A DNA stretch of 64,000 nucleotides, taken from the NCBI GenBank assembly GCA_023267655.1, contig JAHFMV010000002.1, positions 7,228 through 71,227 of the forward strand, read 5' to 3'. This DNA comes from Candidatus Kaiserbacteria bacterium. GTDB lineage: Bacteria; Patescibacteriota; Minisyncoccia; Phycocordibacterales; UBA2100. Positions 9,960 through 54,665 of the stretch are shown here, in pieces (within the stretch, counting starts at the first letter, position 1; every line of letters begins with the position of its first letter). The notes under the pieces were generated by a model, which was not told the DNA's origin, ran no database searches, and saw nothing but the letters and a program-made list of their open reading frames with translations. A program made the position numbers and the translations under genes.

Positions 9960-10031
9960 GCATCTTTAGCTCAGTGGTAGAGCGTTCCGTTCACATCGGA
10001 AAGGCCGTTGGTCCGATCCCAACAAGGTGCA
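9960..10031 (+). tRNA. tRNA-Val (anticodon CAC).
   Basis: Hand-folded: acceptor GCATCTT/AAGGTGC; D-arm GCTC-AGTGGTA-GAGC; anticodon stem TTCCG/CGGAA with loop TTCACAT; T-arm GTTGG-TCCGATC-CCAAC. A terminator hairpin CATCTGCC-CTGC-GGCAGAT-TTTCT follows. Confidence 0.8.
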
Positions 10032-10269
10032 CAAAGACAGAAACATCTGCCCTGCGGCAGATTTTCTGCTCTGTGCACGGGCGGAGCGATGTTTCGCGAG
10101 CACGCGAAACCGCGAGCCGGGGTCGCGGAAATTTTCGAGCGTAGGCGAGGAAATTATCCGTGACGCACGAGCGTGTGATATAAAGACACGCTACGGGCCG
10201 TAGTATACCGGTAGTACGCACGATTCGGGTTCGTGTAGAGTGAGTTCGAGTCACGTGTCGTTTTCAGCT

Positions 10270-10335
10270 GAAATCGCACGCGACCCCGCCTCGGCGCCAA
10301 GCGCCTCCGGCCTTGCGACGGGGCCCCAACCCCGT
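10270..10335. repeat. Copy of a 62-66-bp GC-rich palindrome-containing repeat (REP/MITE-like). The second copy is at 54291..54352.
   Basis: The reverse complement is nearly identical to 54291-54352: GTGAGACGGGGKTGGGGCCCCGTCGCAAGGCCGGAGGCGC...GGCGCCGAGGCGGGG. Confidence 0.5.
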
Positions 10336-10398
10336 CTCACTCGCCGGCCCGATCAAAAAACAAGGGCGTCGCCAAACACGCTGGCGACGCCCTTCGAC

Positions 10399-29900: not shown

Positions 29901-31548
29901 TACGGACAACAACTACGACGTGTCGTTTACTGATGGCACACTCTCGATTTCGAGCAATCCTGACAACGTGACACCGACAGCCGCTGATCAAAGCGTAACG
30001 GTCAATCAGAATTCGACAAACAACTCGATCACCCTCGGTGCAACCGATCCGGAAGCAGCACCACTCACATGGACGGTGGGCTCGCCCTCGCACGGATCGC
30101 TCGTAGGTGACGCACCAAATCTCTCGTACACGCCGACTGCAGGTTACTTCGGCGCGGATTCATTTACCTTTTCGGCGAATGACGGCAACAGCGATAGCAA
30201 CACCGCAAGCGTATCCATCACCGTAAATCTTCTCGCGACATGTGAGGCGGGTACGCTTGTCGAAGGACAGTGTGTACACGCGCCAGTTTCGGCGTGCCCC
30301 GCTGGATTCGCGTACGACAGCGAAAGCCATATGTGCAAACCACAAACACAAGCACCATCATGCACAGAAGGCACTCTCAATCTCGCGACGGGACAGTGTG
30401 AATTTGCCGAAACTCCGGTCGGTGACCCGTCGTGCCCTGACGGTGGTGTCTACGTTGCAGACGCCAATAAGTGCATGATCATTAATCCTCCGCCGACAGA
30501 TACGCCGGTTGTTTTCTACACACCAACGTGCGACGCCGGAACCTTAAATACGGTTACGGATACATGTGAGACAGTTCCACCCCCAGTTTCTGCATGTCCC
30601 GCAAATTTCACCTACAACTCTGATTCGCAAAAATGCGTCTCGACAGCATCTGATGTCGCGCCAAGCTGCGAGGCAGGGACTCTCGACGGCGGGGAGTGCA
30701 CGCCAAATCCGACGTCGCCAACGTGCCCTGCCGGATATGCGGTGAGCGGAAATATCTGTCTCCCGGTCACCACGTTCTCGCTCAATGTAACGGCATCAGG
30801 ACCGGGGACGGTGTCGTGTGATCCGGGTGCCTGTGTTTCGACGCCGGCGACAGGAACTCTCGTTACGATTACTGCACATCCTGCAACGAATGCATCGCTC
30901 AGCGCGTGGTCCCATGACGGTTGTACCGGCAACACCTGCGCGGTCACGGTAAATGCGGATACTTCTGTCACCGCAACATTCGCATGCAATAGCGGCTTCC
31001 ATCTTGATTCAAACACCTGCGTTGCAGATTCGACAGGAGGTGGTGGCGGATCTTCAGGCGGAGGTTCTTCTGGTGGTGGCGGCTCGAGCGGTGGTGGGGG
31101 TGGAGGCGGTGGTAACTCCGGCGGTGGAGGTGGTGGCGGAGGTTCAGGTGGCACAAACGGCGGCACTACGCCTCCACAAGGCCAAGTCCTCGGTGCATCA
31201 ACTGGCGGTAGTGGCGCGGGATGCTATCTCTTTACGCGCAATCTCTCGATCGGCATGACCGGCGCGGATGTCAAAGAATTGCAGAAAATCCTGATCGGCA
31301 AAGGCTTTCTCAAAGTCGCAGCGCCGACGACATACTTTGGCCAGGCAACGAAGGCAGCCGTCAAAGCATTCCAAAAAGCAAACGGTCTCGCCCAAATCGG
31401 CATCGTCGGTCCGCAGACACGCGCGCTCCTCAATTCCTGCGGCACGTCACCACAAAGCGACAAGGACGCAAAAATCAAGGCGCTCCAAGATCAACTCGCA
31501 GCGCTTCTCGAACAAATCAAGAAACTTCTCGCCGCGCAGGGACATTAA
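26953..31548 (+). CDS. Giant secreted multidomain surface / adhesin-like protein; the likely start is the Met at 27106.
   Basis: The protein has a signal peptide. Repeated Ig-like/MBG-type modules contain YSYDVTYNGS...APTNAG. Other modules are HYR-like and cadherin-like. Five cysteine-rich CEAGTL...C repeats follow. A poly-Gly/Ser linker leads to a C-terminal peptidoglycan-binding-like domain and a coiled coil. Confidence 0.8.
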   Translation: MLLHGWWIRGIDVGVPGFLSKILAPVARIFCFRSFRAWSLLEHYSVHSANHMHNVSRVLSGTLNKSRVILITFSLFAMLSLGIPAGTVFASLSGVTISGQSPNPVTQASTATFTANVTNSSGSTGRAVSITAATSLPTGAALASSQCIVVPGDGVAHAVTFTVSTTGSTPVGSDTFTVTATRWNNTTANCSGGVSDTETSPNGTIVVSSAKVNSTTSITSDTPDPSTIDQAYAVGVSVTRASGSNTPSGTVTVSDGTDSCVDSTASGSGATVTYSCNLTSTTSGAKTLTATYAGDSNFNGSNGTTAHTVLANQTITVNTHAPASATYGNTFAVAATASSGLTVAITTTGGCSIAGGTVTMTSGTSNCVVHYNQSGNASYNAAAEVTETATAAKRAITATADNKSKTYGAADPALTYQLTSGTLVGADTLSGSIARVAGENVGSYAINQGTLAASSNYTLSFVAGTFSIGKANATVNVNGFSGTYDGAQHGASGTATGVNAENLSANLSLGSTYTDVPGGTAHWTFTGGTNYNDASGDVAIDITAASANISLSDLTHTYNGTAQSAVVTANYSYDVTYNGSATAPTNAGGYPVVATINDGNHTGTASDTLSISKAPLTVTVPSQTIPFGTAPAAFIATIDGYVNGESADVLDTGPTCAIDGEHAAVGTYEIVCADGADNNYDFNYTSGTLTITDSAPIIGEHGNVTAEATSGGGAVVSYDLPSVTDDIDILTAVCLPASGSTFAIGDTTVTCSAGPDTGGNDAAPTSFTVTVKDTTNPTITVTGTDSDAAYGSDYTDLGATASDTVSGDLTNSIVTTGLPVDTTVLGAHTVSYDVADAAGNSAHASRTVTVVPASGEISLSDLDYAYDGTAKSATVISAYSYDVTYDGSNTAPTNAGSYDVVATITDPNHTGSASGTLVIHKVPLAVTAQSQSIAFGGSPSEFAANFDGYVNGEDASVLDAPILCDVSGAHTAIGSYPISCSGGTDNNYDVSFTDGTLSISSNPDNVTPTAADQSVTVNQNSTNNSITLGATDPEAAPLTWTVGSPSHGSLVGDAPNLSYTPTAGYFGADSFTFSANDGNSDSNTASVSITVNLLATCEAGTLVEGQCVHAPVSACPAGFAYDSESHMCKPQTQAPSCTEGTLNLATGQCEFAETPVGDPSCPDGGVYVADANKCMIINPPPTDTPVVFYTPTCDAGTLNTVTDTCETVPPPVSACPANFTYNSDSQKCVSTASDVAPSCEAGTLDGGECTPNPTSPTCPAGYAVSGNICLPVTTFSLNVTASGPGTVSCDPGACVSTPATGTLVTITAHPATNASLSAWSHDGCTGNTCAVTVNADTSVTATFACNSGFHLDSNTCVADSTGGGGGSSGGGSSGGGGSSGGGGGGGGNSGGGGGGGGSGGTNGGTTPPQGQVLGASTGGSGAGCYLFTRNLSIGMTGADVKELQKILIGKGFLKVAAPTTYFGQATKAAVKAFQKANGLAQIGIVGPQTRALLNSCGTSPQSDKDAKIKALQDQLAALLEQIKKLLAAQGH

Positions 31549-32350: not shown

Positions 32351-32658
32351 TCCGCGGTGGCGCAACGGTAGCGCAGCTCGCTGTCGAAGGCAGCTTCTTA
32401 GAGGAATCTAAGAATGCAAACGAGGAGAATTGCTGGAAGCCCGAACTTGAAATAGTGGGTAATCAGCAGCCGAGCTCACGAAAGTGAGAAGGTTCAGAGA
32501 CTATCCGAAAGGAGTAGTCCCATGAGATAGGCACAGCCGCCATCTCACGGGACGAAGCACCTCGCACCCAGAACGGGTGATGATATAGTCCACCCCCTTT
32601 GGAAACATTGGGACAAAGTGTAACGAGTTGGTTGTAGGTTCGAATCCTACCCGCGGAG
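32351..32658 (+). tRNA. tRNA-Asn (anticodon GUU) interrupted by a group I intron in the anticodon loop.
   Basis: 5' exon 32351-32384: TCCGCGG acceptor, D-arm GCGC-AACGGTA-GCGC, anticodon stem GCTCG, loop CTGT. 3' exon 32621-32658: TAA, CGAGT, variable TGGTT, T-arm GTAGG-TTCGAAT-CCTAC, acceptor CCGCGGA, discriminator G. The spliced anticodon loop is CTGTTAA. Confidence 0.7.
32385..32620 (+). ncRNA. Group I self-splicing intron within tRNA-Asn.
   Basis: P-like AATTGCTGGAA, Q-like AATCAGCAGCC, R-like GGTTCAGAGACTA and S-like GATATAGTCC elements are present. The IGS GCAGC sits 6 nt into the intron and can pair with the exon end GCUGU. The intron ends in G. Confidence 0.7.
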
Positions 32659-34245
32659 CTCGGTTGGATGATGTGCGAATGCAAGTACCGTGTCAAACGG
32701 TTTTCGCAGCGTAAACTCTAGCGTTTTTTCGTTTACGGTCGGGTTCTGAAGTAAATACCCCAAAATTGTCCTTTTCTCATCAGGTTCAGAACTTTCGAAG
32801 ATTTCACCCATGCGGCGGGACAAGTCGAGGACAGTGCCAACGTGGGTGTGATACTGATGATCCGCCTTTGTGTATGCTTCTAATTCCGCGTTCAAACGGT
32901 ACTGTTCTTCCTTCAATTCCTGCAACTTATTGTCGTAGTCTTCCTGTGTAATACCCATGTCGAGACGCATATCAAGCAGTGCGTTGACCTTGCGCTGCGC
33001 TCTATCGTATTCGCCACGAATGCGTGCTATTTGCCGCTCATGGTACACAGCTTCGTGCTCATTGAGCTCACGAAGTTCTGCCACCAGCCTTTCCTGCACC
33101 TCATGCGGAATCATCTTGAAAGCATCAAATACGGCGTGTACTGGTTCCAAAAGCTTTTTCTCTGGGACATAGTCTCGCTTGCATATCCCTTTCGCATTTG
33201 TACAGGAATAATAAATGAATTTACCTTTCTTTATTTCGGGACTCAGCATGCAACCGCAGTTGTTGCAGCGCAAAAGACCTTTCAACACATATGGCTTTGA
33301 AAGAAGCTTTGAGCGACGGGTGCTTCTACCGCGAAGCACGTCCCGACATTCTTGGAACAAATCAGGTGTAATGAGCTTCGGGTACTTGTGAGGATATTCG
33401 CCATATTTTTTTGATACCGCCATGCCGCACAAAAACGTGTCTTTAAGCATCAGCTCTATATTGCTTCGTGATAACTTTTGCCCCTTAAGACCGCGTAAAC
33501 CCATGCGATCAGCCTCTTTCCACAACGTTGTTATGGAATAGCCACCTGTAGCGTACATTTCAAACAATTTACGTATGATAGGAGCGCGTACCTCATCGAG
33601 AATAATATCGGTTTCGATTACCTCGCCCTTCTCGTTTCGCCGCTGCTTTCGGACGTAGCCGATGCGGGGGTTTCCTGTCCACTCACCAACTCGCCGCTTC
33701 TGCTCGAATGCTCGTTTTACATTATCGCTGATCGCGTTCGAATAATACTCAGCAAGGTTCAGACTGATGCCGAATTGGAATTTACTATTTGCGGTTCCAT
33801 CGCCGTTTATAACTTGATTGTCCGAGGCGAAATGTAATTCGATTTTCCCACTTCTCGCCAATTCGCACAGTAACGCCACCCGTTTATCGAAGACGTTGCG
33901 TGAAAAACGATCTACCTTATCGAAGCACACAGCGACCTTTTCGAACTTCGCCCTTGCCTGTATATACAGCAAAGCTTCGTCGAACACGTCTCTCTTTTCC
34001 TTGTACGCACTTTCGTCAAAACTAAACACTTTCTCGACCTCAAACCCCTTACGTCGACAGTGATTTTTCATTCGCTCGATCTGTGCCGGCAAAGAATTAC
34101 CTGCTTCCTGCTGCTCTGCCGTGGACACTCTGGCGATATTGATTGATTTCATTGTGTTTTCTTTAATTTTACCCCATATCCGCGACGCGAAGTCACGTAA
34201 AATGGCTGATAACTTTTCAAGGATGCTGTCATTTTTTTGAACCAC
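32647..34245 (-). CDS. Large serine recombinase (integrase); the likely start is MKSINIARVST, near 34152.
   Basis: An N-terminal resolvase domain with catalytic Ser (ARVST) and DRFSRN, followed by a recombinase domain, a zinc ribbon (CNNCGC...CTNAKGIC) and a coiled coil. The last codons and stop overlap the tRNA-Asn 3' end. Confidence 0.85.
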   Translation of the reverse strand: MVQKNDSILEKLSAILRDFASRIWGKIKENTMKSINIARVSTAEQQEAGNSLPAQIERMKNHCRRKGFEVEKVFSFDESAYKEKRDVFDEALLYIQARAKFEKVAVCFDKVDRFSRNVFDKRVALLCELARSGKIELHFASDNQVINGDGTANSKFQFGISLNLAEYYSNAISDNVKRAFEQKRRVGEWTGNPRIGYVRKQRRNEKGEVIETDIILDEVRAPIIRKLFEMYATGGYSITTLWKEADRMGLRGLKGQKLSRSNIELMLKDTFLCGMAVSKKYGEYPHKYPKLITPDLFQECRDVLRGRSTRRSKLLSKPYVLKGLLRCNNCGCMLSPEIKKGKFIYYSCTNAKGICKRDYVPEKKLLEPVHAVFDAFKMIPHEVQERLVAELRELNEHEAVYHERQIARIRGEYDRAQRKVNALLDMRLDMGITQEDYDNKLQELKEEQYRLNAELEAYTKADHQYHTHVGTVLDLSRRMGEIFESSEPDEKRTILGYLLQNPTVNEKTLEFTLRKPFDTVLAFAHHPTELRG

Positions 34246-35291
34246 TCATCTGCTCTCATGCCTCTTAAGCGCGGCGCTGTCGTATTGAATTTACGTGCAA
34301 AGCGAGACCACGTTCGCGCGTTCACGAAGGCATCAAGCACGATGCGGAGCTCACGCATACCACCGCAATTACGCGCAAGCATGATGAGACCAACGAGCTC
34401 TATAGCTTCTGCCGCTTTTGCTGGATGCGTCGCCAGTACTTTATACAGCACGTGCTTTGCAGATCTTTTAGGTCCGAATATGACGCCGCGCCAGTTTAAT
34501 GTCGCCGCATCCCAGTAATCGCGAAGGATCGTTTGGCTCTTTTGCGATGAAAAGACATCGGAAAACGCGGGATTCATCCCGAAACCGTGCCGCGCGAATA
34601 CAGCGTTTAACTTTACCCTAGCCGTGAGTTGTACCTCAAAGCGAAGGATATTTTGCCCGCGCAATCTGGCGGCAAGTCTTGTCTGTGCCTGTTGCCACTT
34701 TTTGCCTCTGCCCGTTTTTTTTGATAGTTCAGCCACCTTGTCATAGAACGTGAACGAATGCTGACTCGCCGTCGCCTTGAGACCCTGACCACCATTGCGA
34801 TAGTGCGTGTATGACACATCAACACCTCGGCGGACCATCAGCTTTTCCAGCTCTTTCATGACCCCCGTAATGGGTGCGCGTTTCCCAAGCAAGACATTTT
34901 TGGAATAATCTACCCGCATGATCTTCGCATTTCGAATCTCTTTTGCCGTGAGGTCGATCCCCATCATGCTTAGCCGAGATTGCAGAACCGAAAGAACCAC
35001 GTCGAAATCCGCATCAACCACTTCGTCCACATTATTGCCGTAAAGCAGCTTCGGAACAGAGAACTGGATCTTAATCCTTGATGTCACCCCATGCTTCTTA
35101 CTCATGTTGTTTACCCCTGTAATTTGCGGGAAATAGTGCTCGCTTCCACGCTCTTCCTTGGAGGGATCACGATAAAAGGTCTCATATCCTTTCCCTCGCG
35201 TACCGCCATCCCACATCGGTCTGCCTTTGGTGTCCACATCGCGTGCCGTTAAATTTCCTTGCGACACCGCGAGAATAACAGTGTCGATCAT
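34149..35291 (-). CDS. Putative rolling-circle replication initiator (Rep_trans / phage gene II-like).
   Basis: RVDYSKN and FTFYDKVAE motifs resemble the Rep_trans RxD..D and YDK signatures. It is adjacent to iteron-like repeats. Confidence 0.4.
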   Translation of the reverse strand: MIDTVILAVSQGNLTARDVDTKGRPMWDGGTRGKGYETFYRDPSKEERGSEHYFPQITGVNNMSKKHGVTSRIKIQFSVPKLLYGNNVDEVVDADFDVVLSVLQSRLSMMGIDLTAKEIRNAKIMRVDYSKNVLLGKRAPITGVMKELEKLMVRRGVDVSYTHYRNGGQGLKATASQHSFTFYDKVAELSKKTGRGKKWQQAQTRLAARLRGQNILRFEVQLTARVKLNAVFARHGFGMNPAFSDVFSSQKSQTILRDYWDAATLNWRGVIFGPKRSAKHVLYKVLATHPAKAAEAIELVGLIMLARNCGGMRELRIVLDAFVNARTWSRFARKFNTTAPRLRGMRADEWFKKMTASLKSYQPFYVTSRRGYGVKLKKTQ

Positions 35292-35482
35292 ACGGGCTGT
35301 CGCTCTGTATACAGATGCGAATTAACCCGCCTATCAATTCGGAGAAGCAGATCGTAGAGGCGTACAAGATTTCTCTCGCCGCTAAAATCATCTAATAACG
35401 CAGCAATGGCTGCACTTTTCTCGATTCCGCGCGGCTGCGGATCGCGGGACGCATTGTGCATCCCGATTTCTTTCTCGCTCAT
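35288..35482 (-). CDS. Small hypothetical protein upstream of rep.
   Basis: 64-aa ORF overlapping the rep start by 4 nt. Confidence 0.25.
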   Translation of the reverse strand: MSEKEIGMHNASRDPQPRGIEKSAAIAALLDDFSGERNLVRLYDLLLRIDRRVNSHLYTERQPV

Positions 35483-35600
35483 AGTGAGCTCTGTCGTTTA
35501 CACCCACAGGATCGCGTAAAACGCGCCCTACAGGTTGCGAGATAGGAAGTGGCGGGTCGGACTAGACCCCATCACGCCAAATAATGGCTTTAGACATCAT

Positions 35601-35701
35601 TTGACTACGTTGTGCCGCTTATTCGTACACCACTTCGGTACGAAATACATATTGAAACGCTTTGTTGCGGGATTTTCCCCGCCTTTGTGCCGCTTTATTC
35701 A
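35601..35701. repeat. Iteron-like direct repeats TTGTGCCGCTT(T)ATTC, followed by an AT-rich stretch; candidate origin.
   Basis: Two copies 85 bp apart (35601.. and 35686..), then the AT-rich run caatttatttttatttacttattcc at about 35780. Confidence 0.35.
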
Positions 35702-36015
35702 AACTTATACAGCGTAAACCACTTAACTTACCGAGAAGTATATTCGAGATTAACGAAAAGTCAATACCATTTTGTGTCGCAATTTATTTTTATTTACTTA
35801 TTCCATGCCGCGAGGGCATTTTTTCTCTGAAATCGGAGTGTATGTCCTCGGACTTACTACAAACTCTTGAAATGGCTCAAGAGAGCCGTTTCTATTTTTG
35901 TCGCGACCACGTGCGTGTGTCTCTTTGAATCTTCGCCGCAATTGCCAACATCCATATCGAAACACTGCATACACCCCTCACGACTTGGAAAGGGTTATTA
36001 ATAACTATTTGCACC

Positions 36016-36207
36016 ATGAAAATGTATATTGAGCCGCTGTACCGCCTCGTGTGGGACGAGGCGCAGGGCGCGTACGTCGAGACGGGGGAGCTTCTGGGCT
36101 ACAAAGCTGTGGATTGGCTCGGGCAGATCATCGCATTCGGCGAGAGCCGCGAGGCGGCGTACGAGAATGCGCTGGACGCGGCAGCAGACGTCCTCGGGGG
36201 TGTGTAG
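36016..36207 (+). CDS. HicB-like (UPF0150) small protein.
   Basis: 63 aa. YVETGELLGY...GESREAAYENALDA resembles the HicB_lk antitoxin fold. Confidence 0.4.
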   Translation: MKMYIEPLYRLVWDEAQGAYVETGELLGYKAVDWLGQIIAFGESREAAYENALDAAADVLGGV

Positions 36208-36212
36208 CTGAC

Positions 36213-37352
36213 CTATTCTTTGTGTTCGACGATAAATTTTGCTCGCTGATACAGCTCGTCAAAAGTGAGAATGTCGATGCCATGAATCGACTTGCGAAAT
36301 CGTTGAAAAGTCTCCCGCTTGCTCCGGCTGTCGAGCTGCGAGAGCGAGCCAACCACGATGATTCCTTTCGGCTGAACCGTATAAACGCCTCTACCTTCCA
36401 GCTCGTCTCTGTTGTCCGGCTGCTCTGACCCCGACTTGTCCCACGTCGCCATGTTAGCTTCGATTTGGGACACCGCATCAGTTAACTCTTTCGACAAGCT
36501 CCATGCCCCCGCTCTGATTTCCACGCTACCCTGCAACAGCGGGGTTGCCGGCGTCTTTATTTCAACGAGGACTGTGAAATCTATGTCGCCCGTCGTGGAG
36601 GTAAGGTAATCGCCCTTCTGTCCTCCTTTACCATCCACGCGCGTGCCACCATAATGAGGCTGCGCCTGTTCCTGTTTGAGGATTTGGTAGTTAAGACCAT
36701 AGCCAAAAATCCATTTGTTTTTCTCAAAAAAGCCCTGCCACTCACTCTCCGCGCGGGGAAGCGTTTCGAGCGCTTTTTCAAATCGCTCAAGCACGTCGCG
36801 CCGTTTGAGAAGCTGGTTTATATCCTCATCCGACAACTTTACCTCCGCTGCAGACGAGAGTTTCTTGATGATGCTCACCACGCTCTCCGTATCGCGACCA
36901 CGCAAAGCGGCGACAATCTCCGCTTCGCCCTGCGATATGAGCGAAAAAGCGCCCTGCGGTATCTCTATATCGCGCAAGGATTGCAGGAATGAAATGAGTT
37001 GCCAAAAATTCTCGTGGCATTCCTCCAAACTAACGTTCGCTTTGAGCACGTAAGTGTTTTCCTCGATAGCCCCGCTTTCTTCGAAGATCTTTTGACTTTT
37101 GTCTCGTATGGAGAACGCGAGGCGCGGGGTGAATTTTTCGCCCTTCTTGATGAGGGACACTTTGCAGACGTAGCTCACGCGCGGGCGTTCGTGCAGCACA
37201 AACTGCGTAATCAGCCGTCTTTGCTGGGTGTGGTAGAAGTAGTAAAAGTTATCGACTGCCGGCGCAGAGTTGATCTGGAGGTGGGCAAAGTCATGTTTAC
37301 CAATGACGAAATCCTCGCCATCGCTCCACCCAATAAGCTCGCTGAATTTCAT
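36213..37352 (-). CDS. Shedu-like DUF4263 PD-(D/E)xK nuclease-domain protein.
   Basis: C-terminal GDIDFTVLVEIKTP (D...EIK PD-ExK motif) and GIIVVGS. The size of about 380 aa matches SduA. Confidence 0.5.
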   Translation of the reverse strand: MKFSELIGWSDGEDFVIGKHDFAHLQINSAPAVDNFYYFYHTQQRRLITQFVLHERPRVSYVCKVSLIKKGEKFTPRLAFSIRDKSQKIFEESGAIEENTYVLKANVSLEECHENFWQLISFLQSLRDIEIPQGAFSLISQGEAEIVAALRGRDTESVVSIIKKLSSAAEVKLSDEDINQLLKRRDVLERFEKALETLPRAESEWQGFFEKNKWIFGYGLNYQILKQEQAQPHYGGTRVDGKGGQKGDYLTSTTGDIDFTVLVEIKTPATPLLQGSVEIRAGAWSLSKELTDAVSQIEANMATWDKSGSEQPDNRDELEGRGVYTVQPKGIIVVGSLSQLDSRSKRETFQRFRKSIHGIDILTFDELYQRAKFIVEHKE

Positions 37353-37354
37353 AC

Positions 37355-37885
37355 GTGAGGGCTTTCAACATAGCACTTCCCGCCCTTGCAATAAAGCAAG
37401 GAGACAGAGGGCTCCCGTGCTATATTGTGCGGCATATGAAGACGACGGGCGTCGTGCTGGCAGGCCTATTCTCGATTTTGCTCGTCTTGATTATCCTCAA
37501 ATTGATGGGCTACAGCTTCAATAAAGACTACTTCAGCTTTGATAAGCAGCAGTGCATCGCGAGCGAGGATGAGACCCGCGCAGGCCATTCAGGTATACAG
37601 GGGTGCATATTTTGGATGAGAAACGATTACTTGGAAAAAACGCAGTCGTGGAAAGACGAGTTTGCAAAAGACACAGACTACTGCAATGAAAAATACGGAG
37701 GAGATACCACAAAGGCCGCAAGCTATGCGGGGTTCAAATCACTGAGCGACCCAAGATGCAACTATGGTCCATTTACGAACCAAAAACGGCAAGAAAACTG
37801 GGCATACCTCGTTTCAAAAGAACAAGACGGATTTTACGCATATTGTGTCGAACAAATCTGTCCCGACCAACGCCTTTTCAAATAA
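37355..37885 (+). CDS. Membrane-anchored cysteine-containing hypothetical protein; the likely start is MKTTGVVLAG.
   Basis: An N-terminal TM helix, then a Cys-containing extracytoplasmic domain. Confidence 0.4.
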   Translation: MRAFNIALPALAIKQGDRGLPCYIVRHMKTTGVVLAGLFSILLVLIILKLMGYSFNKDYFSFDKQQCIASEDETRAGHSGIQGCIFWMRNDYLEKTQSWKDEFAKDTDYCNEKYGGDTTKAASYAGFKSLSDPRCNYGPFTNQKRQENWAYLVSKEQDGFYAYCVEQICPDQRLFK

Positions 37886-37943
37886 AGGGAATGCCGCAGT
37901 TGCCACGAATAGCCAGTAAACTGCCGAGTGCTATGATAATGGT

Positions 37944-38288
37944 ATGAAATTAGAAACATTTTTTGGATTGCAGAAAGAAGTACAAGAGTGCGTGGAAAAG
38001 TTTAATTTCAACTGGACTAACTATGTGCAATACATCCACCTTGTTGAAGAGGTAGCGGAATTGGGGGAAGCGCTCACAGTGCATCAGGGAGACAGAAAAG
38101 CTGGTTCTGGTGAAAATGCATTAGCCGACCACCACGACACAAGGGAAGAATTGGGGGATGTTTTATTTAATGTGATACAGATAGCAAATCAGTTAAATCT
38201 CAATCTTGATGAGGTAATGGAGGAAACTTTTGCACGATACGAGGAAAAGTTAAAAAGGCTTAAGAATCAGGCTGAGACGTCCGCATAA
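37944..38288 (+). CDS. MazG-like nucleotide pyrophosphohydrolase.
   Basis: EEVAELGEA and EELGDVLFNV, the all-alpha NTP-PPase motifs. Confidence 0.65.
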   Translation: MKLETFFGLQKEVQECVEKFNFNWTNYVQYIHLVEEVAELGEALTVHQGDRKAGSGENALADHHDTREELGDVLFNVIQIANQLNLNLDEVMEETFARYEEKLKRLKNQAETSA

Positions 38289-39931
38289 AGCACAGACGCG
38301 GGGAGTACGTGGACGAAGGTGCGATAATCCCCTATACAATCAGCACAGTCATGAAGGAGGATAGTGCCGGAATGTAAGCCAGCTCCTTCACCGCTGCTGC
38401 CCACGCTTGAGTTCTGAACTCGTCCAGCCTGGGGAGCCCAGACTTGGATTGACTTGAATTCGCCGGTTATCGAATCGGGATTTTGGCGCGCGGCGCGAAG
38501 CGCCGCGTAGAGAGGATGCGCCGTGCCGGAGATTTTTTGATTGTAGAGTTGCAGGTTCGAGCCGAAGATTTTTTGAATTGCGGATTTTTTGGCGGGGAGA
38601 GAGGGGTTGCTTGGGATTTCAGCAAGGTTTTCTGCCTCCTTTATCCACTCACGCATGGGTTCGAGCCACGCGCTGCCGTCCCGCTCCAAACGCACAATTT
38701 GTTCCAATAACGTCCGCTTGTGGGACAACAGTGCGCGACGCTTCGCCAAGTATGCGTCGCGCTCAATTTCCTGCGCAATATAGAGATCCAAAACGCGGTC
38801 GAGTTTGCGGTCTATTTCGTTCATTTCGTCCCGTAAGCCAGAAATTGTCTGCGCGCTTGTGCGCTCCGCATCGCGTTCATCCACTTGCGTTCTGCGCCCG
38901 AAGTCGTGCGCCCATTCGGGCGGCAGGACAAAGAGCGAAAGCAGATTCGAAATATCAGTAACGAGATTTTCTTCACGCACGTAGGATTGCGTGCAGTGAA
39001 TCGACTTTTTTGTGCAGCGATAGTAAACATATCGGTGAAAATTGCCGTTCTTTTGGTGTTTCTCACGCACCTCGGCCGTGATAGCCATGCCACATTCACC
39101 ACACGACATGAGACCGCAAAATACTTGCGGCTGTGTCGTCGCGGCTTGCGGATGCCCTCGTTCGACAACTACTTTTTGTACTTTATCGAACAGCCGCTTG
39201 TCCACGATTGGCGTATGACGTCCCTCATATAGTTCGCCCATGTAGAGAAAAAGACCGCAATAAAACGGATTGGTGAGAATGAATTTCACGCGGTCGTCGT
39301 GGATACGATTACCGTATAAACTGCGCACTCCATTGTCGTAAAGAAACTTACCAATGTCTTCTACTCGCGAATTGCCTTTAGAATATTTCTCAAACGCGGC
39401 CTGAATTATTTTCGATTTCTTCTTATCAAGCATGATTGTTTTAGTGCGCGGATCGTTTCGATACCCCACCGGCGCAGTACCCGGGAAATCACCGCGCCGC
39501 GCTTTCGCGCGAAGCCCTCGCGCAGTGTTCGCGCTCAATTGTCGGATATATTCATTTGCCATGCCGAATTCAACCGACATGATGAGCACATTGTCCTGCG
39601 GCAAATACGTCCGATCGTGGGTTCGTATTTGCTGGATGATTCCCTGTTGCAATAGCCAGCTAATTTGTCCACTGTCCACGGGATTGCGCGAAAGTCGATC
39701 TATCTTCCAACACAAAATGCCCTGCGCCTCGCCCTTTTGGAGTCGCGCCATCATCTCGCTGAACACGGGGCGGCCGGGCATCTTCGCCGAGCGCTTTTCT
39801 ACAAACTGCTCGACTATTTCTAGCCCCTCCCGCAGCGCGAGCGCGTACAACTCTGACAACTGCGCCTCGATAGATAGGACTTGCTTGTCCTCGACATCAG
39901 TGCTTTTGCGGGCGTAGAGGAAATATTTCAT
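38267..39931 (-). CDS. Large serine recombinase (second copy, with a different sequence).
   Basis: YARKSTD...DRLSRN resolvase domain, a recombinase domain, a zinc ribbon and a coiled coil. Its C-terminal coding region (38444-38616) is one arm of a 173-bp inverted repeat. Confidence 0.85.
   Translation of the reverse strand: MKYFLYARKSTDVEDKQVLSIEAQLSELYALALREGLEIVEQFVEKRSAKMPGRPVFSEMMARLQKGEAQGILCWKIDRLSRNPVDSGQISWLLQQGIIQQIRTHDRTYLPQDNVLIMSVEFGMANEYIRQLSANTARGLRAKARRGDFPGTAPVGYRNDPRTKTIMLDKKKSKIIQAAFEKYSKGNSRVEDIGKFLYDNGVRSLYGNRIHDDRVKFILTNPFYCGLFLYMGELYEGRHTPIVDKRLFDKVQKVVVERGHPQAATTQPQVFCGLMSCGECGMAITAEVREKHQKNGNFHRYVYYRCTKKSIHCTQSYVREENLVTDISNLLSLFVLPPEWAHDFGRRTQVDERDAERTSAQTISGLRDEMNEIDRKLDRVLDLYIAQEIERDAYLAKRRALLSHKRTLLEQIVRLERDGSAWLEPMREWIKEAENLAEIPSNPSLPAKKSAIQKIFGSNLQLYNQKISGTAHPLYAALRAARQNPDSITGEFKSIQVWAPQAGRVQNSSVGSSGEGAGLHSGTILLHDCADCIGDYRTFVHVLPASVLYADVSA
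38444..38616. repeat. Inverted repeat IR1, copy 1, inside the recombinase 3' coding region.
   Basis: Near-identical to the reverse complement of 40929-41113. The two copies are confirmed by shared peptides PSLPAKKSAIQKIFGSNLQLYNQK... on opposite strands. Confidence 0.7.
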
Positions 39932-40080
39932 CGTTATTTGAAGGTTACCCTAGAATTTTGTTATCCACATTCATTTGAAATTCACCTGTTGACATGCTAA
40001 TATGATGCTAATCCATTCATTTGGAGGTGGATAGTCCGAATGGGCTAGCGTGAGGGAGTCCCGCAAGGGGCTTTTTCATT

Positions 40081-40884
40081 TTAAGTGAGAAATATCTTTC
40101 CATATCCATCAATTCTCCCGTTATAGAGGTGGCGATTATATTTTTCCGCTACGGCCTTGCAAAGTTGTTGACCATAACTACCCCCCGGACTATCGACTTT
40201 TCCTTTTGCGTGTAGAAGTTCCATGCGGCATGGATAAGCAAGAATGTCGGCAATTTGTAATCCCGTAACATTCGCACTTTTCGGCTGGATCTTTATTTCT
40301 TTCGTAGTTAGAGAATTTTGAAAGAATTCCGGCTTACGAAAATTTGTACCGCTCTCCCACACGTTTTGGTATGCTTCTTTGAGCTGCATATCTTCACGAC
40401 CGCCGCGACTTTCCGCCATCACATCACCCTTAGCATTGTAATAATTGAGAAATCCGCAGTAGCGCTCGAGTAGTGCAACAACGCAATAGTGATATGGATG
40501 TAAGGCTATATTGCCGTACCTTTTCACATGAGCATTTTTATCAATTACAACCGTCAACAGCTTAAAGTCGTACTTTTTCAGAGTGACTAAAAAATCGTCG
40601 TTAAAAGCTCTTTCTTTTGCCGGATCTAGTAGTCGCCAAAACGGGCCTTTTTTATTGATGAGCTCTTTACGATGAAGAATGACGGGTTCGTCCGGATTAT
40701 GCGGAAAATGTCGCTCTTTAAATTCTGTGAAGTCAGGATGGATGACTTTTTTATAGTAGTCGTTTTCAACAATAACACCTGTGATGCCCAAATACCGACT
40801 TACCACGTTATCTTCATTGCGCGAATACACGTGATCTCCGGCCTCATCGAGATAAAGTCGATAGCGTTTTACATCCATGGGCAA
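40081..40884 (-). CDS. DUF3800-family protein.
   Basis: N-terminal YRLYLDEAGD (DEAG/DESG-type motif) and a length of about 270 aa. Confidence 0.5.
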   Translation of the reverse strand: MPMDVKRYRLYLDEAGDHVYSRNEDNVVSRYLGITGVIVENDYYKKVIHPDFTEFKERHFPHNPDEPVILHRKELINKKGPFWRLLDPAKERAFNDDFLVTLKKYDFKLLTVVIDKNAHVKRYGNIALHPYHYCVVALLERYCGFLNYYNAKGDVMAESRGGREDMQLKEAYQNVWESGTNFRKPEFFQNSLTTKEIKIQPKSANVTGLQIADILAYPCRMELLHAKGKVDSPGGSYGQQLCKAVAEKYNRHLYNGRIDGYGKIFLT

Positions 40885-40928
40885 ATAATACCAAATTATG
40901 AGGGACTAAGTGACTCTCGTGGCCGCGC

Positions 40929-41113
40929 GCATGGATTCCGTATCCCCTCTCTCCCCGCCAAAAAATCTGCAATTCAAAAAATCTTCGGCTCGAACCTGCA
41001 ACTCTACAATCAAAAAGTCTCCGGCACGGCGCATCCTCTCTACGCGGCGCTTCGCGCCGCGCTCCAAAATCCCGATTCGATAACCGGCGAATTCAAATCA
41101 ATCCAAGTCTGGG
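40929..41113. repeat. Inverted repeat IR1, copy 2.
   Basis: Reverse complement of 38444-38616 with a few mismatches. Read on the plus strand it continues into IR2 and would give an alternative recombinase C-terminus, ...QVWAQLYQIARTYFSKHDE*. Confidence 0.7.
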
Positions 41114-45540: not shown

Positions 45541-46543
45541 CCTAATTGCAACCGGTGCGCCTTCGCCAAAACACACGCCTCGGACTCACAAAGCCGAGGC
45601 GCTTTCTTTGTCGATCGTTGAGACGACGAACAATGTGTGCGAGTTCTGCTGGGGTGATCAGATTGAAGTCGAGTGTCTTCGGAAAGTACTGTCGGAGAAG
45701 TCCATTCGTATTCTCGTTGGTACCGCGCTCCCACGCATGGTACGGGTAGGCGAAGTACACGGTCATGCCGGTCTTCTTCTCAAGGCGCTCCCAATCGCTG
45801 AATTCGATGCCGTTGTCGAGTGTGAAGATCCTGCGTTTCTTCTTTGGAATATGTCGGAAGTGTTCTAGTGCGAGTGAGGTGAGAAGTCGCGACCTCATTT
45901 TGGGAAGCACGAACGCAATGAGGTATCCGCTCCTTCGGTCGACGAAAGAAACGATACGCACGCGCTTGTCTCTTCCCATTAAGGTATCTCCTTCCCAGTC
46001 TCCGATCCTTCCGCGTTTTTGGACGATCGCTGGACGTTCGTCAATGCGTCGTTTCTTCCCTTGTTCTCGGGCTTTTTCACGTATCTTCGTACCGCGCTTT
46101 CTGCGGTATTTGCCCTTTGATGATCGGAGGTACTGCTTCAGGTGTGGTGCACGTTCTTTGAGGTAGCGGTATATCGTACTTGCAACAAGTGACCCACCAC
46201 GCTTTCTCAGAACACCAGCAATCTGCTCGGGCGACTTGTGGAGCTTCAATTCTTTCGTCATGAACCGCAGCAGGGAGCCACGGATCACACGAATGCCCTG
46301 CATTGCATCGACACGCTTCATGTGCTTCCTTCGTCGCACCTCTCGCACGTCGTATCCGTTTCTTCCTCCGTAATCCTTCACGTGCCTCCCCAGTGAACTT
46401 TTGTCTTTGCCGATGGTCCGGGCAATCTCGCTCAGCGAATGACCAGCTCGCAGCATCCGTGCAATGCACGACCAATCCTCCTTCCCAATGTGTGTATGTG
46501 CCATCTTGGCACTGTGAATGCCTCGCGGGGGGTTGCAATTAGC
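45541..46543 (-). mobile_element. IS30-family insertion sequence.
   Basis: Terminal inverted repeats CCTAATTGCAACC (45541-45553) and GGTTGCAATTAGC (46531-46543), flanking a single IS30 transposase gene. Confidence 0.65.
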
Positions 46544-46549
46544 CTGCAA
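45542..46549 (-). CDS. IS30-family DDE transposase; the likely start is MAHTHIGKEDW, near 46504.
   Basis: An N-terminal HTH, plus the catalytic motifs DNGxEF and NTNGLLRQYFPK. Confidence 0.8.
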   Translation of the reverse strand: MQANCNPPRGIHSAKMAHTHIGKEDWSCIARMLRAGHSLSEIARTIGKDKSSLGRHVKDYGGRNGYDVREVRRRKHMKRVDAMQGIRVIRGSLLRFMTKELKLHKSPEQIAGVLRKRGGSLVASTIYRYLKERAPHLKQYLRSSKGKYRRKRGTKIREKAREQGKKRRIDERPAIVQKRGRIGDWEGDTLMGRDKRVRIVSFVDRRSGYLIAFVLPKMRSRLLTSLALEHFRHIPKKKRRIFTLDNGIEFSDWERLEKKTGMTVYFAYPYHAWERGTNENTNGLLRQYFPKTLDFNLITPAELAHIVRRLNDRQRKRLGFVSPRRVFWRRRTGCN

Positions 46550-54176: not shown

Positions 54177-54665
54177 ATGAATCCCGTCGTACATTTTGAA
54201 ATGCCGTTTGAAGACCGCGACCGCGCGGCGAAATTTTATTCGACTGCCTTTGGCTGGAAGCCGCAGATGATGGGACCCGAAATGGGTGAGACGGGGGTGG
54301 GGCCCCGTCGCAAGGCCGGAGGCGCGTCCGGCGCCGAGGCGGGGCCGAGCACTTCGCCAGCAGGCGAAGATGCGTGGCAATATCTCGTCATGCAGACCTC
54401 CGAGACCGATGACAAGGGCATGATCAAGGAAATTGGCCACATTAACGGCGGCATGTTTAAGAAAACGACGGACAATCCTCATCCATCGATCGTGATCTCG
54501 GTGCCCGATATCAAGGCCGCGATGGAAAAAGTGAAAGCTGCGGGCGGAACTGTTTCCTTTACCGAAAACGGCGAACCGATGAATATCCCCGGCATCGGCC
54601 TCTATGTCGGCATTACGGACACCGAAGGCAACCGCGTCTCGATGCTCCAGCCGATGGGGATGTAA
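54177..54665 (+). CDS. VOC/glyoxalase-family protein carrying an in-frame low-complexity insertion encoded by the GC-rich repeat.
   Basis: MNPVVHFEMPFEDRDRAAKFY... is a VOC fold. The insertion GETGVGPRRKAGGASGAEAGPSTSPAGED is encoded by repeat 54291-54352. Confidence 0.55.
   Translation: MNPVVHFEMPFEDRDRAAKFYSTAFGWKPQMMGPEMGETGVGPRRKAGGASGAEAGPSTSPAGEDAWQYLVMQTSETDDKGMIKEIGHINGGMFKKTTDNPHPSIVISVPDIKAAMEKVKAAGGTVSFTENGEPMNIPGIGLYVGITDTEGNRVSMLQPMGM
54291..54352. repeat. Second copy of the 62-bp GC-rich repeat (REP/MITE-like), located inside a CDS.
   Basis: Near-identical to the reverse complement of 10270-10335. Confidence 0.5.

What the first reader, a model, noticed from the sequence alone, without database searches (positions are those of the whole stretch)
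54291..54352. A 62-bp GC-rich palindromic repeat is inserted in frame inside a VOC-family gene and also in an intergenic spacer.
The same sequence, GTGAGACGGGG-TGGGGCCCCGTC-GCAAGGCCGGAGGCGC..GGCGCCGAGGCGGGG, occurs at 54291-54352 and, reverse-complemented, at 10270-10335. The first copy lies within the glyoxalase/VOC ORF and encodes the low-complexity segment GETGVGPRRKAGGASGAEAGPSTSPAGED. The second lies in the structured spacer after tRNA-Val. The repeat has an internal 7-bp-stem hairpin. It looks like a small REP/MITE-like mobile repeat able to land in coding sequence without breaking the frame.
Basis: seen in the sequence. Interest (0 to 1): 0.5.

Follow-up and report, generated by a model that had tools for sequence, protein, structure and literature searches.

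The report
Mobile three-hairpin repeat in CPR bacteria
The 62-base repeat is the front part of a 91-base, three-hairpin selfish element that has inserted into a VOC enzyme gene (read through as 30 extra amino acids) and into a proline tRNA gene; it belongs to a large family in candidate-phyla-radiation bacteria, not found in Rfam or in the papers searched, whose other members sit at the 3' ends of tRNA genes.

Summary
The repeat is real, but the description needs correcting. The unit is 91 nt (93 in the VOC copy), not 62, and folds into three different hairpins. Copy A (54286-54378, +) is a true insertion. About 133-aa VOC orthologues and two empty-site DNAs lack it; the net gain is 90 nt, or 30 codons, read in frame. 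Copy B (10250-10340, -) does not lie in a plain spacer. It splits a tRNA-Pro(CGG) gene in its T-loop: deleting 88 nt restores a perfect cloverleaf, and a syntenic relative has the intact gene. A third, diverged copy (10052-10164, +) follows tRNA-Val. Pattern scans and a covariance model found more than 90 relatives in Patescibacteria/CPR genomes and metagenomes. All helices covary and one G.U pair is nearly invariant, so the fold belongs to one strand. About 40% of relatives are joined to tRNA T-loops or 3' ends, often with a direct and an inverted copy of the tRNA 3' end. Other copies are read through inside an MFS/spermidine-synthase gene (both orientations) and a VirD4-like gene. There are no terminal inverted repeats, no target duplication and no Rfam match. 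Best reading: a non-autonomous mobile element that behaves like Rickettsia RPEs. Its mobilising enzyme and its intermediate are unknown.

The parts
54286..54378 (+). Copy A of the 91-nt element (93 nt here). P1 hairpin is 54290-54309, P2 (GCC-GGA-GGCGC-loop-GCGCC-GA-GGC) is 54315-54340, and P3 long hairpin is 54344-54378.
   Evidence: Covariance-model hit of 94 bits, E 2e-16. Aligned with 13 other copies. It has 2 extra nt in the P2 loop (GTCCG against TTG).
54289..54378 (+). Net inserted DNA in the VOC gene: 90 nt, or 30 codons. An equivalent placement is 54290-54379. The GTG at 54286-54288 is also present in the empty sites.
   Evidence: DNA alignment with the orthologous empty sites L012 and L013 (...GAAATGGGCG|AATATG......GAAATGGGTG|ATTACG...). 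Protein alignment of 16 orthologues.
54177..54665 (+). Host gene: VOC/glyoxalase-family protein, 162 aa. Orthologues are about 133 aa.
   Evidence: Pfam Ble-like_N and Glyoxalase. 4553 homologues, with the nearest 124-137 aa long. The insert lies between predicted strands 30-32 and 70-73 and has pLDDT of about 30, in a low-confidence model.
10250..10340 (-). Copy B of the element (91 nt, canonical), antisense inside tRNA-Pro(CGG).
   Evidence: Covariance-model hit of 110.8 bits, E 1e-19.
10194..10352 (+). tRNA-Pro(CGG) gene split in its T-loop by copy B. The 5' part is 10194-10251 and the 3' part is 10340-10352.
   Evidence: Partial Rfam tRNA hit at 10201-10256. ARAGORN finds no tRNA in the intact sequence, but finds a perfect tRNA-Pro(CGG) after deleting 10252-10339 (88 nt). 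The syntenic locus L137 has the intact gene ...GTGAG TTCGATT CTCGC CGGCCCG A.
10052..10164 (+). Third, diverged family member (variant core GGCGGAGCG...CGCGAGCCGGGGTC, expanded P2, large P3 loop), directly downstream of tRNA-Val.
   Evidence: Covariance-model hits of 32.3 and 28.7 bits, E 4e-4 to 8e-4. An orthologous copy sits at the same place in L137 (2744-2817), with different P2/P3 sequences but the same hairpins.
9960..10032 (+). tRNA-Val(CAC), the tRNA to which the diverged copy is attached.
   Evidence: ARAGORN and Rfam.

Best explanation
The repeat is part of a 91-nt non-autonomous mobile element. From 5' to 3' the element reads GUGAG, then hairpin P1, then GCAAG, then hairpin P2 (which has a GGA/GA internal loop), then GGG, then a 15-16-bp hairpin P3 ending in GUGAC.

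Shown:
- It was inserted as a discrete unit into a VOC gene, into a tRNA-Pro gene, and elsewhere into other genes.
- It makes no target duplication and has no inverted termini.
- At the four reconstructable sites, the 91-nt unit replaces 3 target bases, a net gain of 88.
- The VOC copy stays in frame because it carries 2 extra bases in the P2 loop. It is read through as a 30-residue insertion between two predicted beta-strands.
- Its fold is kept by compensatory changes, and a nearly invariant G.U pair restricts the fold to one strand.
- Its relatives are concentrated at tRNA T-loops and 3' ends.

Inferred:
- The element moves as a folded single strand, either ssDNA or RNA.
- An enzyme encoded elsewhere recognises this folded strand.
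- tRNA T-loop regions are the ancestral, tolerated target.
- The window's 'type 1' form carries its own P1 hairpin and therefore lands more widely.
- Selection keeps only in-frame or harmless insertions.

The stated confidence is for the whole package. That it is an inserted mobile repeat I hold at about 0.9, and the single-strand mechanism at about 0.45.
For: Insertion:
- VOC orthologues and two empty-site DNAs lack the segment.
- Deleting 88 nt restores tRNA-Pro(CGG), and the syntenic L137 has the intact gene.
- The MFS/spermidine-synthase gene has empty sites L140 and L141, against L001 with a net gain of 84 nt. An independent antisense copy sits in the same linker in L142.

Multi-copy and spread:
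- 12 exact-core copies occur in 5 CPR MAGs, and at least 8 in one Minisyncoccia MAG.
- More than 120 metagenome stretches were found, giving 94 covariance-model hits.

Fold:
- In the 14-sequence alignment, 11 of 16 P3 pairs show compensatory changes and 98% of cells pair.
- Across 92 distinct sequences, 24 of 30 pairs covary. 98.1% of cells pair, against 31-48% when the partners are slid. G.U is present in 90 of 92 at the fourth P3 pair.

No TSD or TIR: junctions were read directly.

tRNA link:
- 51 of 144 cores have a same-strand tRNA 16-115 nt upstream; I estimate under 1 by chance.
- The 3' flank repeats the tRNA from C56 to C74/75, and the 5' arm is its reverse complement.
- 6 type-1-like copies lie antisense in T-loops.

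Frame: only copy A has the 5-nt P2 loop.
Against: - No mobilising enzyme was identified. The window's transposases (IS1595, IS30-like), serine recombinases and G2P-like Rep are not linked to the element by any test.
- The very strong conservation of the unpaired junction bases (GCCGGAGGC, CGAGGCGGGGUC) looks as much like a functional RNA as like a parasite.
- So does the retention of a folded copy at the same place after tRNA-Val in two genomes whose EamA proteins are 78% identical.
- The 3-base replacement rule rests on four sites, and three of those were reconstructed by inference. It fails in L001a, where the net gain is 84.
- Insertion into hairpin loops is not general: only 2 of 39 dispersed copies have flanking stems of 10 bp or more.
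- The large alignment was fitted to the model, which inflates the pairing counts.
- All sequences are from MAGs and metagenomes, so copy number per genome is uncertain.
Confidence: 0.6

Rival explanations
1. The family is primarily a host-functional structured RNA. It would be a three-way junction transcribed with, or just after, tRNA genes, for example acting in tRNA 3'-end processing, protection or regulation through its arm complementary to tRNA positions 54-73. The dispersed type-1 copies, including the two in this window, would be occasional by-products of its duplication.
For: - All helices covary and a G.U pair is nearly invariant.
- The single-stranded junction bases are highly conserved.
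- 51 of 144 cores lie directly downstream of a tRNA on the same strand.
- The 5' arm is an exact reverse complement of the neighbouring tRNA's 3' part, and it stays so in 6 loci where the downstream duplicate has decayed.
- A copy is kept at the same place after tRNA-Val in the window and in L137, with changed sequence but the same hairpins.
Against: - The window's two canonical copies are insertions that damage a tRNA gene and lengthen an enzyme.
- Copies occur in both orientations inside ORFs.
- Most tRNAs in this window have none.
- Terminator-like hairpins lie between the tRNA and the element.
- Tandem arrays and decayed copies exist.
- There is no Rfam family.
Confidence: 0.2
2. It is a miniature integrative element moved as double-stranded DNA by a tyrosine or serine recombinase that recombines at tRNA T-loops. 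This would be like a genomic island stripped of all its genes (CIME-like).
For: - The tRNA-linked relatives are flanked by a 19-20-nt direct repeat running from T-loop C56 to the tRNA end. This is the classical footprint of integrase-mediated insertion at tRNA genes.
- In L066, L058, L107 and L098, the distal repeat keeps a true CCA while the copy attached to the tRNA does not, as expected if the element supplies a replacement 3' end.
- The window holds two large serine recombinases next to another tRNA.
Against: - The repeat and the inverted arm match whichever tRNA is next door, and more than 12 different tRNA identities are involved. A fixed attP cannot explain that.
- The window copies have no flanking repeat at all and replace 3 bases.
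- Strand-specific G.U conservation and stem covariation are not expected for double-stranded protein-binding sites.
- No recombinase lies within or beside the elements.
Confidence: 0.12
3. The segment is an ancestral low-complexity linker of the VOC protein, a chance similarity, or an assembly chimera.
For: Only one contig carries this exact VOC protein. The sequence is GC-rich and of low complexity.
Against: - None of the 15 aligned orthologues has the segment, and the listed nearest homologues are about 124-137 aa, against 162.
- The nucleotide alignment shows a clean 90-nt gap.
- The same 91-nt unit occurs in more than 20 near-identical copies in other genomes.
- Zero chance matches are expected.
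- The gene halves on both sides are in frame.
Confidence: 0.01

Closest known systems
Rickettsia palindromic elements (RPEs; Ogata et al. 2000, as summarised in PMC10969869)
   Same: Both are small (about 100-150 bp) structured repeats with no known transposase, found in a small-genome bacterial lineage. Both are inserted in frame into unrelated protein-coding genes and read through as extra peptide. Both are also found in RNA genes and between genes.
   Different: The phylum is different, and no sequence relation was tested or is expected. This element is 91 nt, GC-rich, and has three distinct covarying hairpins. Its canonical net length (88) is not a multiple of three. Its relatives are tied to tRNA T-loops and 3' ends, with direct and inverted copies of the tRNA end.
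MITEs (Correia, ERIC, QMITE and others)
   Same: Both are short, non-autonomous, multi-copy and able to fold. Both are sometimes intragenic, producing in-frame fusions.
   Different: The defining terminal inverted repeats and target-site duplications are absent. The termini are GTGAGAC... and ...GCGTGAC, and the target loses 3 bases instead of gaining a duplication.
REP/BIME elements with RAYT transposases, and IS200/IS605-derived palindrome-associated elements (own knowledge; REP classes in PMC3733652)
   Same: Both rely on hairpins rather than inverted termini and make no target duplication. Both are presumed to act as a folded single strand. The P1 hairpin ends in CGTC.
   Different: REPs are single 20-40-nt palindromes lying outside genes. 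IS200/IS605 ends carry two similar hairpins and insert 3' of a fixed 4-5-nt word. Here the hairpins are unrelated to each other, and only a G-rich 5' flank bias is seen. No Y1/HUH gene was linked to the element.
Genomic islands and prophages integrated at tRNA genes (own knowledge)
   Same: The tRNA-linked relatives show a direct repeat of the tRNA 3' part starting in the T-loop, and the tRNA is restored by the proximal copy.
   Different: The whole insert is only about 150-200 nt with no integrase. The repeats match many different tRNAs. An inverted copy of the tRNA 3' end is also present.
Folded single-strand recombination sites: integron attC and the CTX-phage attP(+) hairpin (own knowledge)
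   Same: In these sites structure is conserved more than sequence, the action is strand-specific, and an inverted pair of target-like arms is separated by about 90 nt and lies next to the target.
   Different: No IntI or Xer dependence is shown. The target is a tRNA gene, not attI or dif. This is an analogy only.
GC clusters of yeast mitochondrial DNA (own knowledge; PMC4478555 listed, not read)
   Same: Both are short GC-rich hairpin-forming mobile repeats in a lower-GC genome, and both can sit inside coding sequence in frame.
   Different: GC clusters are eukaryotic-organelle elements with a different structure (30-40 bp). They show no tRNA T-loop association of this kind.

Membership tests
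MITE | Terminal inverted repeats | tested here: not met
   The 5' end is GTGAGACG and the reverse complement of the 3' end is GTCACGCA; only 3 of 8 bases agree (consensus).
MITE | Target-site duplication flanking each copy | tested here: not met
   Empty against filled sites for VOC and tRNA-Pro show no duplication. The 91-nt unit replaces 3 bases.
MITE | Short, non-coding, multi-copy, non-autonomous | tested here: met
   The unit is 91 nt. There are at least 8 copies in one MAG and more than 90 family members.
MITE | A parent insertion sequence with the same ends | not tested
   Only 8-kb loci were available. The IS1595 and IS30-like genes in the window were not compared end to end.
REP/BIME (RAYT-associated) | Single 20-40-nt imperfect palindrome, extragenic | tested here: not met
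   The unit is 91 nt with three different hairpins. Copies lie inside ORFs and a tRNA gene.
REP/BIME (RAYT-associated) | Cognate RAYT (Y1 HUH) gene in the genome | not tested
   None was found among the 20 window ORFs scanned. The whole genome was not available.
Rickettsia palindromic elements | In-frame insertion into unrelated protein genes, read through as peptide | tested here: met
   Seen in VOC, in MFS/spermidine synthase in sense and antisense orientation, and in a VirD4-like tail.
Rickettsia palindromic elements | Sequence homology to one of the RPE families; Rickettsiales host | not tested
   No RPE sequence was compared. The hosts here are Patescibacteria, so membership is not claimed.
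IS200/IS605-type hairpin elements | Insertion 3' of a fixed 4-5-nt target word; similar hairpins at both ends | tested here: inconclusive
   The 5' flank is G-rich: G at -1 in 26 of 38 copies and at -2 in 25 of 38, but there is no fixed word. P1 and P3 are unrelated in sequence.
Any Rfam 15 RNA family (including group I/II introns and self-cleaving ribozymes) | Covariance-model match | tested here: not met
   There was no hit on the element at gathering score. There was also none at E<=10 or E<=1 on the window copies, on L010 and on 20 further loci.
Group II intron (mini-derivative) | 5' GUGYG, 3' AY, domain V, bulged branch A in domain VI, precise excision restoring the exon | tested here: not met
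   The element has GUGAG...AC and often an A bulge in P3. However, the bulge is U in L005 and absent in L002, and there is no domain V. Excision at the element's ends would delete the invariant Gly37.
tRNA-gene integrative island | Direct repeat of the tRNA 3' part flanking the insert, and an integrase gene inside | tested here: not met
   The repeat is present in tRNA-linked relatives but absent from both canonical window copies. No ORF lies within the inserts.

The most novel reading that the evidence does not exclude
The conserved three-way junction is an active RNA (or RNA-templated) device that inserts at tRNA T-loops. Each insertion would create both a direct and an inverted copy of the tRNA 3' end, for instance by target-primed synthesis with snap-back. 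That would be a new class of tRNA-targeting mobile element. Alternatively, it is a previously unknown tRNA-linked regulatory or processing RNA of CPR bacteria that has secondarily become mobile.
Probability: 0.22. Interest if true: 0.85.

Novelty: new variant of a known kind. Interest (0 to 1): 0.62.

Why it matters
CPR/Patescibacteria have tiny, gene-dense genomes, and little is known about their small mobile DNA. I found no description of this element in Rfam 15 or in the papers searched.

It shows that these bacteria carry an RPE-like parasite that remodels proteins (a 30-residue loop in a VOC enzyme, and linkers in a membrane spermidine-synthase fusion) and knocks out tRNA genes.

The family's conserved fold and its unusual tRNA-end architecture (a direct plus an inverted copy of tRNA positions 54-74) point to an unexplored insertion mechanism or a new tRNA-linked RNA. 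Either would be directly testable with metatranscriptomes and with the few cultivated CPR strains.

It also matters for annotation. Such copies split tRNA genes so that tRNA finders miss them, and they inflate protein lengths.

Tried and rejected
- **Mini group II intron or spliced element.** The ends GUGAG...AC and a bulged A near the 3' end suggested this. Rejected because the bulge is not conserved, there is no domain V and no Rfam hit, and excision at those ends would delete invariant Gly37.
- **Target-site duplication, or GTGA as a repeated core.** The junctions do not fit. Instead 3 target bases are replaced at four sites, and the rule fails in L001a, where the net gain is 84.
- **General insertion into hairpin loops.** Only 2 of 39 dispersed copies have flanking stems of 10 bp or more; T-loops are the main such case.
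- **The 5' arm as a guide kept complementary to the live tRNA rather than to the downstream duplicate.** The count is 6:0 in favour, but this is explained equally well by decay of the duplicate. Inconclusive.
- **Kink-turn or box C/D-like reading of the GGA/GA loop and of the GUGA ends.** The geometry does not fit.
- **Alternative pairing of CCCCGUC with the downstream GGCGGGG (seen in the MFE fold).** Uncompensated changes in L001b, L002 and L008 argue against it.
- **Known families.** Rfam scans, the viral-contig scan, and phage and plasmid BLAST all returned nothing.
- **Literature.** Searches found no description.
- **Source record.** An exact look-up of the window's own contig failed, so the organism is inferred only from relatives (Minisyncoccia / Parcubacteria-like).
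- **AlphaFold model of the VOC protein.** The model was poor (pLDDT 55) and is used only as weak support.
- **Pfam survey of genes next to the elements.** Prepared but dropped, because many regex hits in GC-rich ORFs were not family members.

Full report
**1. Observation**

A 27-mer from the repeat occurs exactly twice in the window, at 54299-54325 (+) and 10301-10327 (-). None is expected in dinucleotide shuffles, and the two regions align unambiguously. Copy A lies in a 162-aa ORF (54177-54665) that Pfam assigns to the glyoxalase/VOC superfamily. The 7-bp stem GACGGGG/CCCCGTC is there. The window is about 52% GC, while the element is 69-77% GC.

**2. True extent of the unit**

An exact scan of one genome per species, using a 23-nt core of the repeat as the pattern, found 12 more copies. 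They lie in 11 loci from five Patescibacteria/CPR MAGs: two 'Patescibacteria group' bins, a Saccharibacteria bin, a Kaiserbacteria bin, and six contigs of one Minisyncoccia bin.

Aligned, all copies share one unit of 91 nt: GTGAGACGGGGnTGGGGCCCCGTCGCAAGGCCGGAGGCGCTTGGCGCCGAGGCGGGGTCGCGCAAnTTTTCAGCAGAAAAnTATGCGTGAC. In the window this unit is 54286-54378 (93 nt) and 10250-10340 (91 nt, minus strand).

**3. Fold**

The unit has three different hairpins.
- P1 is 7 bp.
- P2 reads GCC-GGA-GGCGC-loop-GCGCC-GA-GGC.
- P3 is 15-16 bp and often carries a one-base bulge.

Evidence from the 14 copies:
- 98% of cells pair, and 11 of 16 P3 pairs show changes on both sides.
- The covariation score is 0.29, against 0.02-0.06 when partners are slid.

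Evidence from 92 distinct family members aligned with a covariance model built from these copies:
- 24 of 30 pairs have compensatory changes.
- 98.1% of cells pair, against 31-48% when slid.
- The fourth P3 pair is G.U in 90 of 92 sequences.

That alignment is fitted to the model, so the counts lean towards it. The 14-copy MAFFT alignment gives the same picture.

A conserved G.U pair would be a C.A mismatch on the other strand. The fold therefore belongs to the strand written above, as RNA or as single-stranded DNA.

No Rfam 15 family matches, either at gathering score or at permissive E-values.

**4. Copy A is an insertion that is read through**

Of 4553 VOC homologues, the nearest are 124-137 aa. 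In an alignment of 16, the window protein alone has 30 extra residues (TGVGPRRKAGGASGAEAGPSTSPAGEDAWQ) between the invariant ...EMG(E/D/N) and Y.

Two orthologous genes fetched as DNA, 88-89% identical as protein in the alignment, have the empty site ...GAAATGGG(T/C)G|A(A/T)TA.... The window has 90 extra bases there, at 54289-54378.

So the first three bases of the 91-nt unit (GTG) coincide with target bases. The canonical unit would add 88 bases and break the frame. Copy A is the only one of the 14 aligned copies with a 5-nt P2 loop (GTCCG instead of TTG or CTG). That brings the gain to 90 bases, or 30 codons. I read this as selection for an in-frame variant; it is an inference.

An AlphaFold model from the shallow alignment is poor (mean pLDDT 55). 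It does place the insert (residues about 38-68, pLDDT about 30) between two strands of the first beta-alpha-beta-beta-beta module.

**5. Copy B splits a tRNA gene**

On the plus strand, the sequence around copy B reads as a tRNA-Pro(CGG) up to its T-loop. The reverse complement of the element follows, and then the rest of the T stem and the acceptor stem.
- Rfam's tRNA model matches 10201-10256 only partially.
- ARAGORN finds nothing in the intact sequence.
- ARAGORN calls a perfect tRNA-Pro(CGG) once 10252-10339 (88 nt) is removed, and none when 91 nt are removed.

A syntenic relative, locus L137, has the gene order PBP2-GreA-tRNAs-EamA, and its EamA is 78% identical. It carries the intact gene ...GTGAG TTCGATT CTCGC CGGCCCG A at the same place.

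Compared with it, the 91-nt unit replaces three bases (G-A-A on the element strand). The closest relative (EamA 94% identical) has only 373 nt between GreA and EamA, against 1033 nt here, but its DNA could not be fetched.

**6. A third copy**

The covariance model finds a diverged member at 10052-10164 (+), 20 nt after tRNA-Val. Its core is GGCGGAGCG...CGCGAGCCGGGGTC, which swaps the outer P2 pairs. L137 has a copy at the same position whose P2 and P3 sequences differ but still form hairpins. With filters off, the window holds no further copy. The other tRNAs in the window have none.

**7. The wider family and tRNA genes**

A gapped pattern taken from the conserved junctions hit more than 120 metagenome stretches. 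The model confirmed 94 members over all loci.

Of 144 pattern cores, 51 have a tRNA gene 16-115 nt upstream on the same strand, involving more than a dozen tRNA identities. From a density of about 45 tRNAs per Mb, I estimate under one by chance.

In these 'sense' members the element lacks its own P1. Instead:
- The bases after ...GTGAC repeat the neighbouring tRNA from T-loop C56 to C74/75.
- The bases before AAR-GCCGGAGG are the exact reverse complement of tRNA positions 54 to about 70. The two together form P1.
- A terminator-like hairpin lies between the tRNA and the arm.
- In four loci the distal repeat keeps a true CCA while the copy attached to the tRNA does not. This suggests that the distal one is the original 3' end.
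- Some loci carry tandem arrays of the whole unit.

Sorting the 94 hits by their 3' flank gives 29 of this sense type, 6 lying antisense in a T-loop (including window copy B), 6 at the very 3' end of a tRNA, and 52 dispersed.

Dispersed type-1-like copies have a G-rich 5' flank: G at -1 in 26 of 38, and never C. They are not generally flanked by stems.

**8. Other coding insertions**

- In L001 a copy lies sense inside a 718-aa fused MFS/spermidine-synthase gene. The ORF stays open, reading ...GAEAGPRASAAAEDAWQ. Two orthologues with 84-85% identity lack it, and the net gain is 84 nt.
- A 56%-identical homologue carries an independent, complete 91-nt copy in the opposite orientation in the same linker (L142 944-1034). 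It is read as ...RDPASAPSASGLATGPQPRLT....
- In L003 a copy lies antisense in the C-terminal tail of a VirD4/TraG-like protein.

The behaviour is that described for Rickettsia palindromic elements (PMC10969869).

**9. What it is not**

- There are no terminal inverted repeats and no target duplication, so it is not a MITE by definition.
- It is too long and too complex for a REP, and it lies inside genes.
- No integrase or other ORF lies within it.
- It is absent from the viral, phage and plasmid collections searched.
- No paper in the searchable library describes it.
- A mini-intron reading was considered and rejected (see the list of rejected ideas).

**10. Mechanism**

*Shown.*
- The unit is inserted as a discrete piece.
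- A few target bases are lost and none are gained.
- The fold is strand-specific and under selection.
- The element is strongly associated with tRNA T-loops and 3' ends.
- Some copies persist in frame inside genes.

*Inferred.*
- The element is recognised and moved as a folded single strand by an enzyme encoded elsewhere.
- tRNA T-loop regions are the preferred and best-tolerated sites.
- The window's form has internalised P1.
- Selection filters insertions in these dense genomes.

I cannot tell whether the intermediate is ssDNA or RNA. The constant small target deletion and the target-derived inverted arm would fit target-primed synthesis with snap-back. Quasi-palindrome correction after insertion could also produce the arm.

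The main rival is that the tRNA-linked members are a functional RNA. This remains open at about 0.2.

**11. Verdict**

The thing is larger and more structured than described, and it belongs to a widespread, apparently undescribed CPR family with an unusual link to tRNA genes. I rate it a new variant of a known kind (RPE-like small mobile repeats), with interest about 0.6.

Noticed in passing
window 32352-32665 (+): A tRNA gene (acceptor TCCGCGG.../...CCGCGGA, T arm GTAGG TTCGAAT CCTAC) carries a group I intron in its anticodon loop (Rfam Intron_gpI, 32374-32612, 62 bits). Its 3' end abuts the end of a large serine recombinase gene (32647-34245, minus strand).
   Followed up: partly
window 32647-41000: A lower-GC block (47-50% GC) looks like an integrated element. 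It holds two large serine recombinases (32647-34245, 38267-39931), a filamentous-phage G2P-like rolling-circle replication protein (34149-35291), a Shedu SduA defence nuclease (36213-37352) and a DUF3800 protein (40081-40884).
   Followed up: partly
window 13607-14512 (+) and 45542-46549 (-): An IS1595-family transposase and an IS30-like (rve + HTH_38) transposase. Neither was linked to the 91-nt element.
   Followed up: no
L043, L026, L061, L064 (about 180-nt period); L091, L049, L044: The tRNA-linked units occur as tandem arrays. Each period holds the tRNA 3' part, a terminator hairpin, the inverted arm and the core, and the last unit is often truncated.
   Followed up: partly
L066, L058, L107, L098: The distal duplicate of the tRNA 3' end keeps a genuine CCA. 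The copy attached to the functional tRNA instead reads CCT, CAA, CAA or CAT after the discriminator.
   Followed up: partly
L107, L101, L044, L079 (spacer between tRNA and arm): A second conserved module, a roughly 48-nt long hairpin (AATGATT(T/C)GCA...CATCATTGCG), precedes the arm in elements attached to four different tRNAs. The inserted unit may therefore be larger than the three-way junction.
   Followed up: no
L142 944-1034 (-) against L001 4172-4262 (+): Two homologous MFS/spermidine-synthase genes carry independent copies of the element in the same linker but in opposite orientations. Both are read through.
   Followed up: yes
L006 6276-6490 and L030 7870-8190: An intact tRNA (Leu, Ser) is followed within about 25-80 nt by a partial second copy of its T arm and 3' end, and that second copy holds an antisense type-1-like element. 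How the partial duplicate arose is unexplained.
   Followed up: partly
L076 1900-2140 (minus strand): The 3' flank of an antisense copy reads as the reverse complement of GTGAGACGGGAGTTCAA, a tRNA-Pro-like variable-loop and T-arm fragment. It begins with the same GTGAGACGGG as the 5' end of the window's element, hinting that the type-1 P1 hairpin derives from a tRNA T arm.
   Followed up: no
window 26953-31548 (+); 16001-17071 and 22266-23348 (-): A 1531-aa surface protein with MBG, Ig-like and peptidoglycan-binding domains, and two MreB paralogues. This is ordinary CPR content, noted only for context.
   Followed up: no
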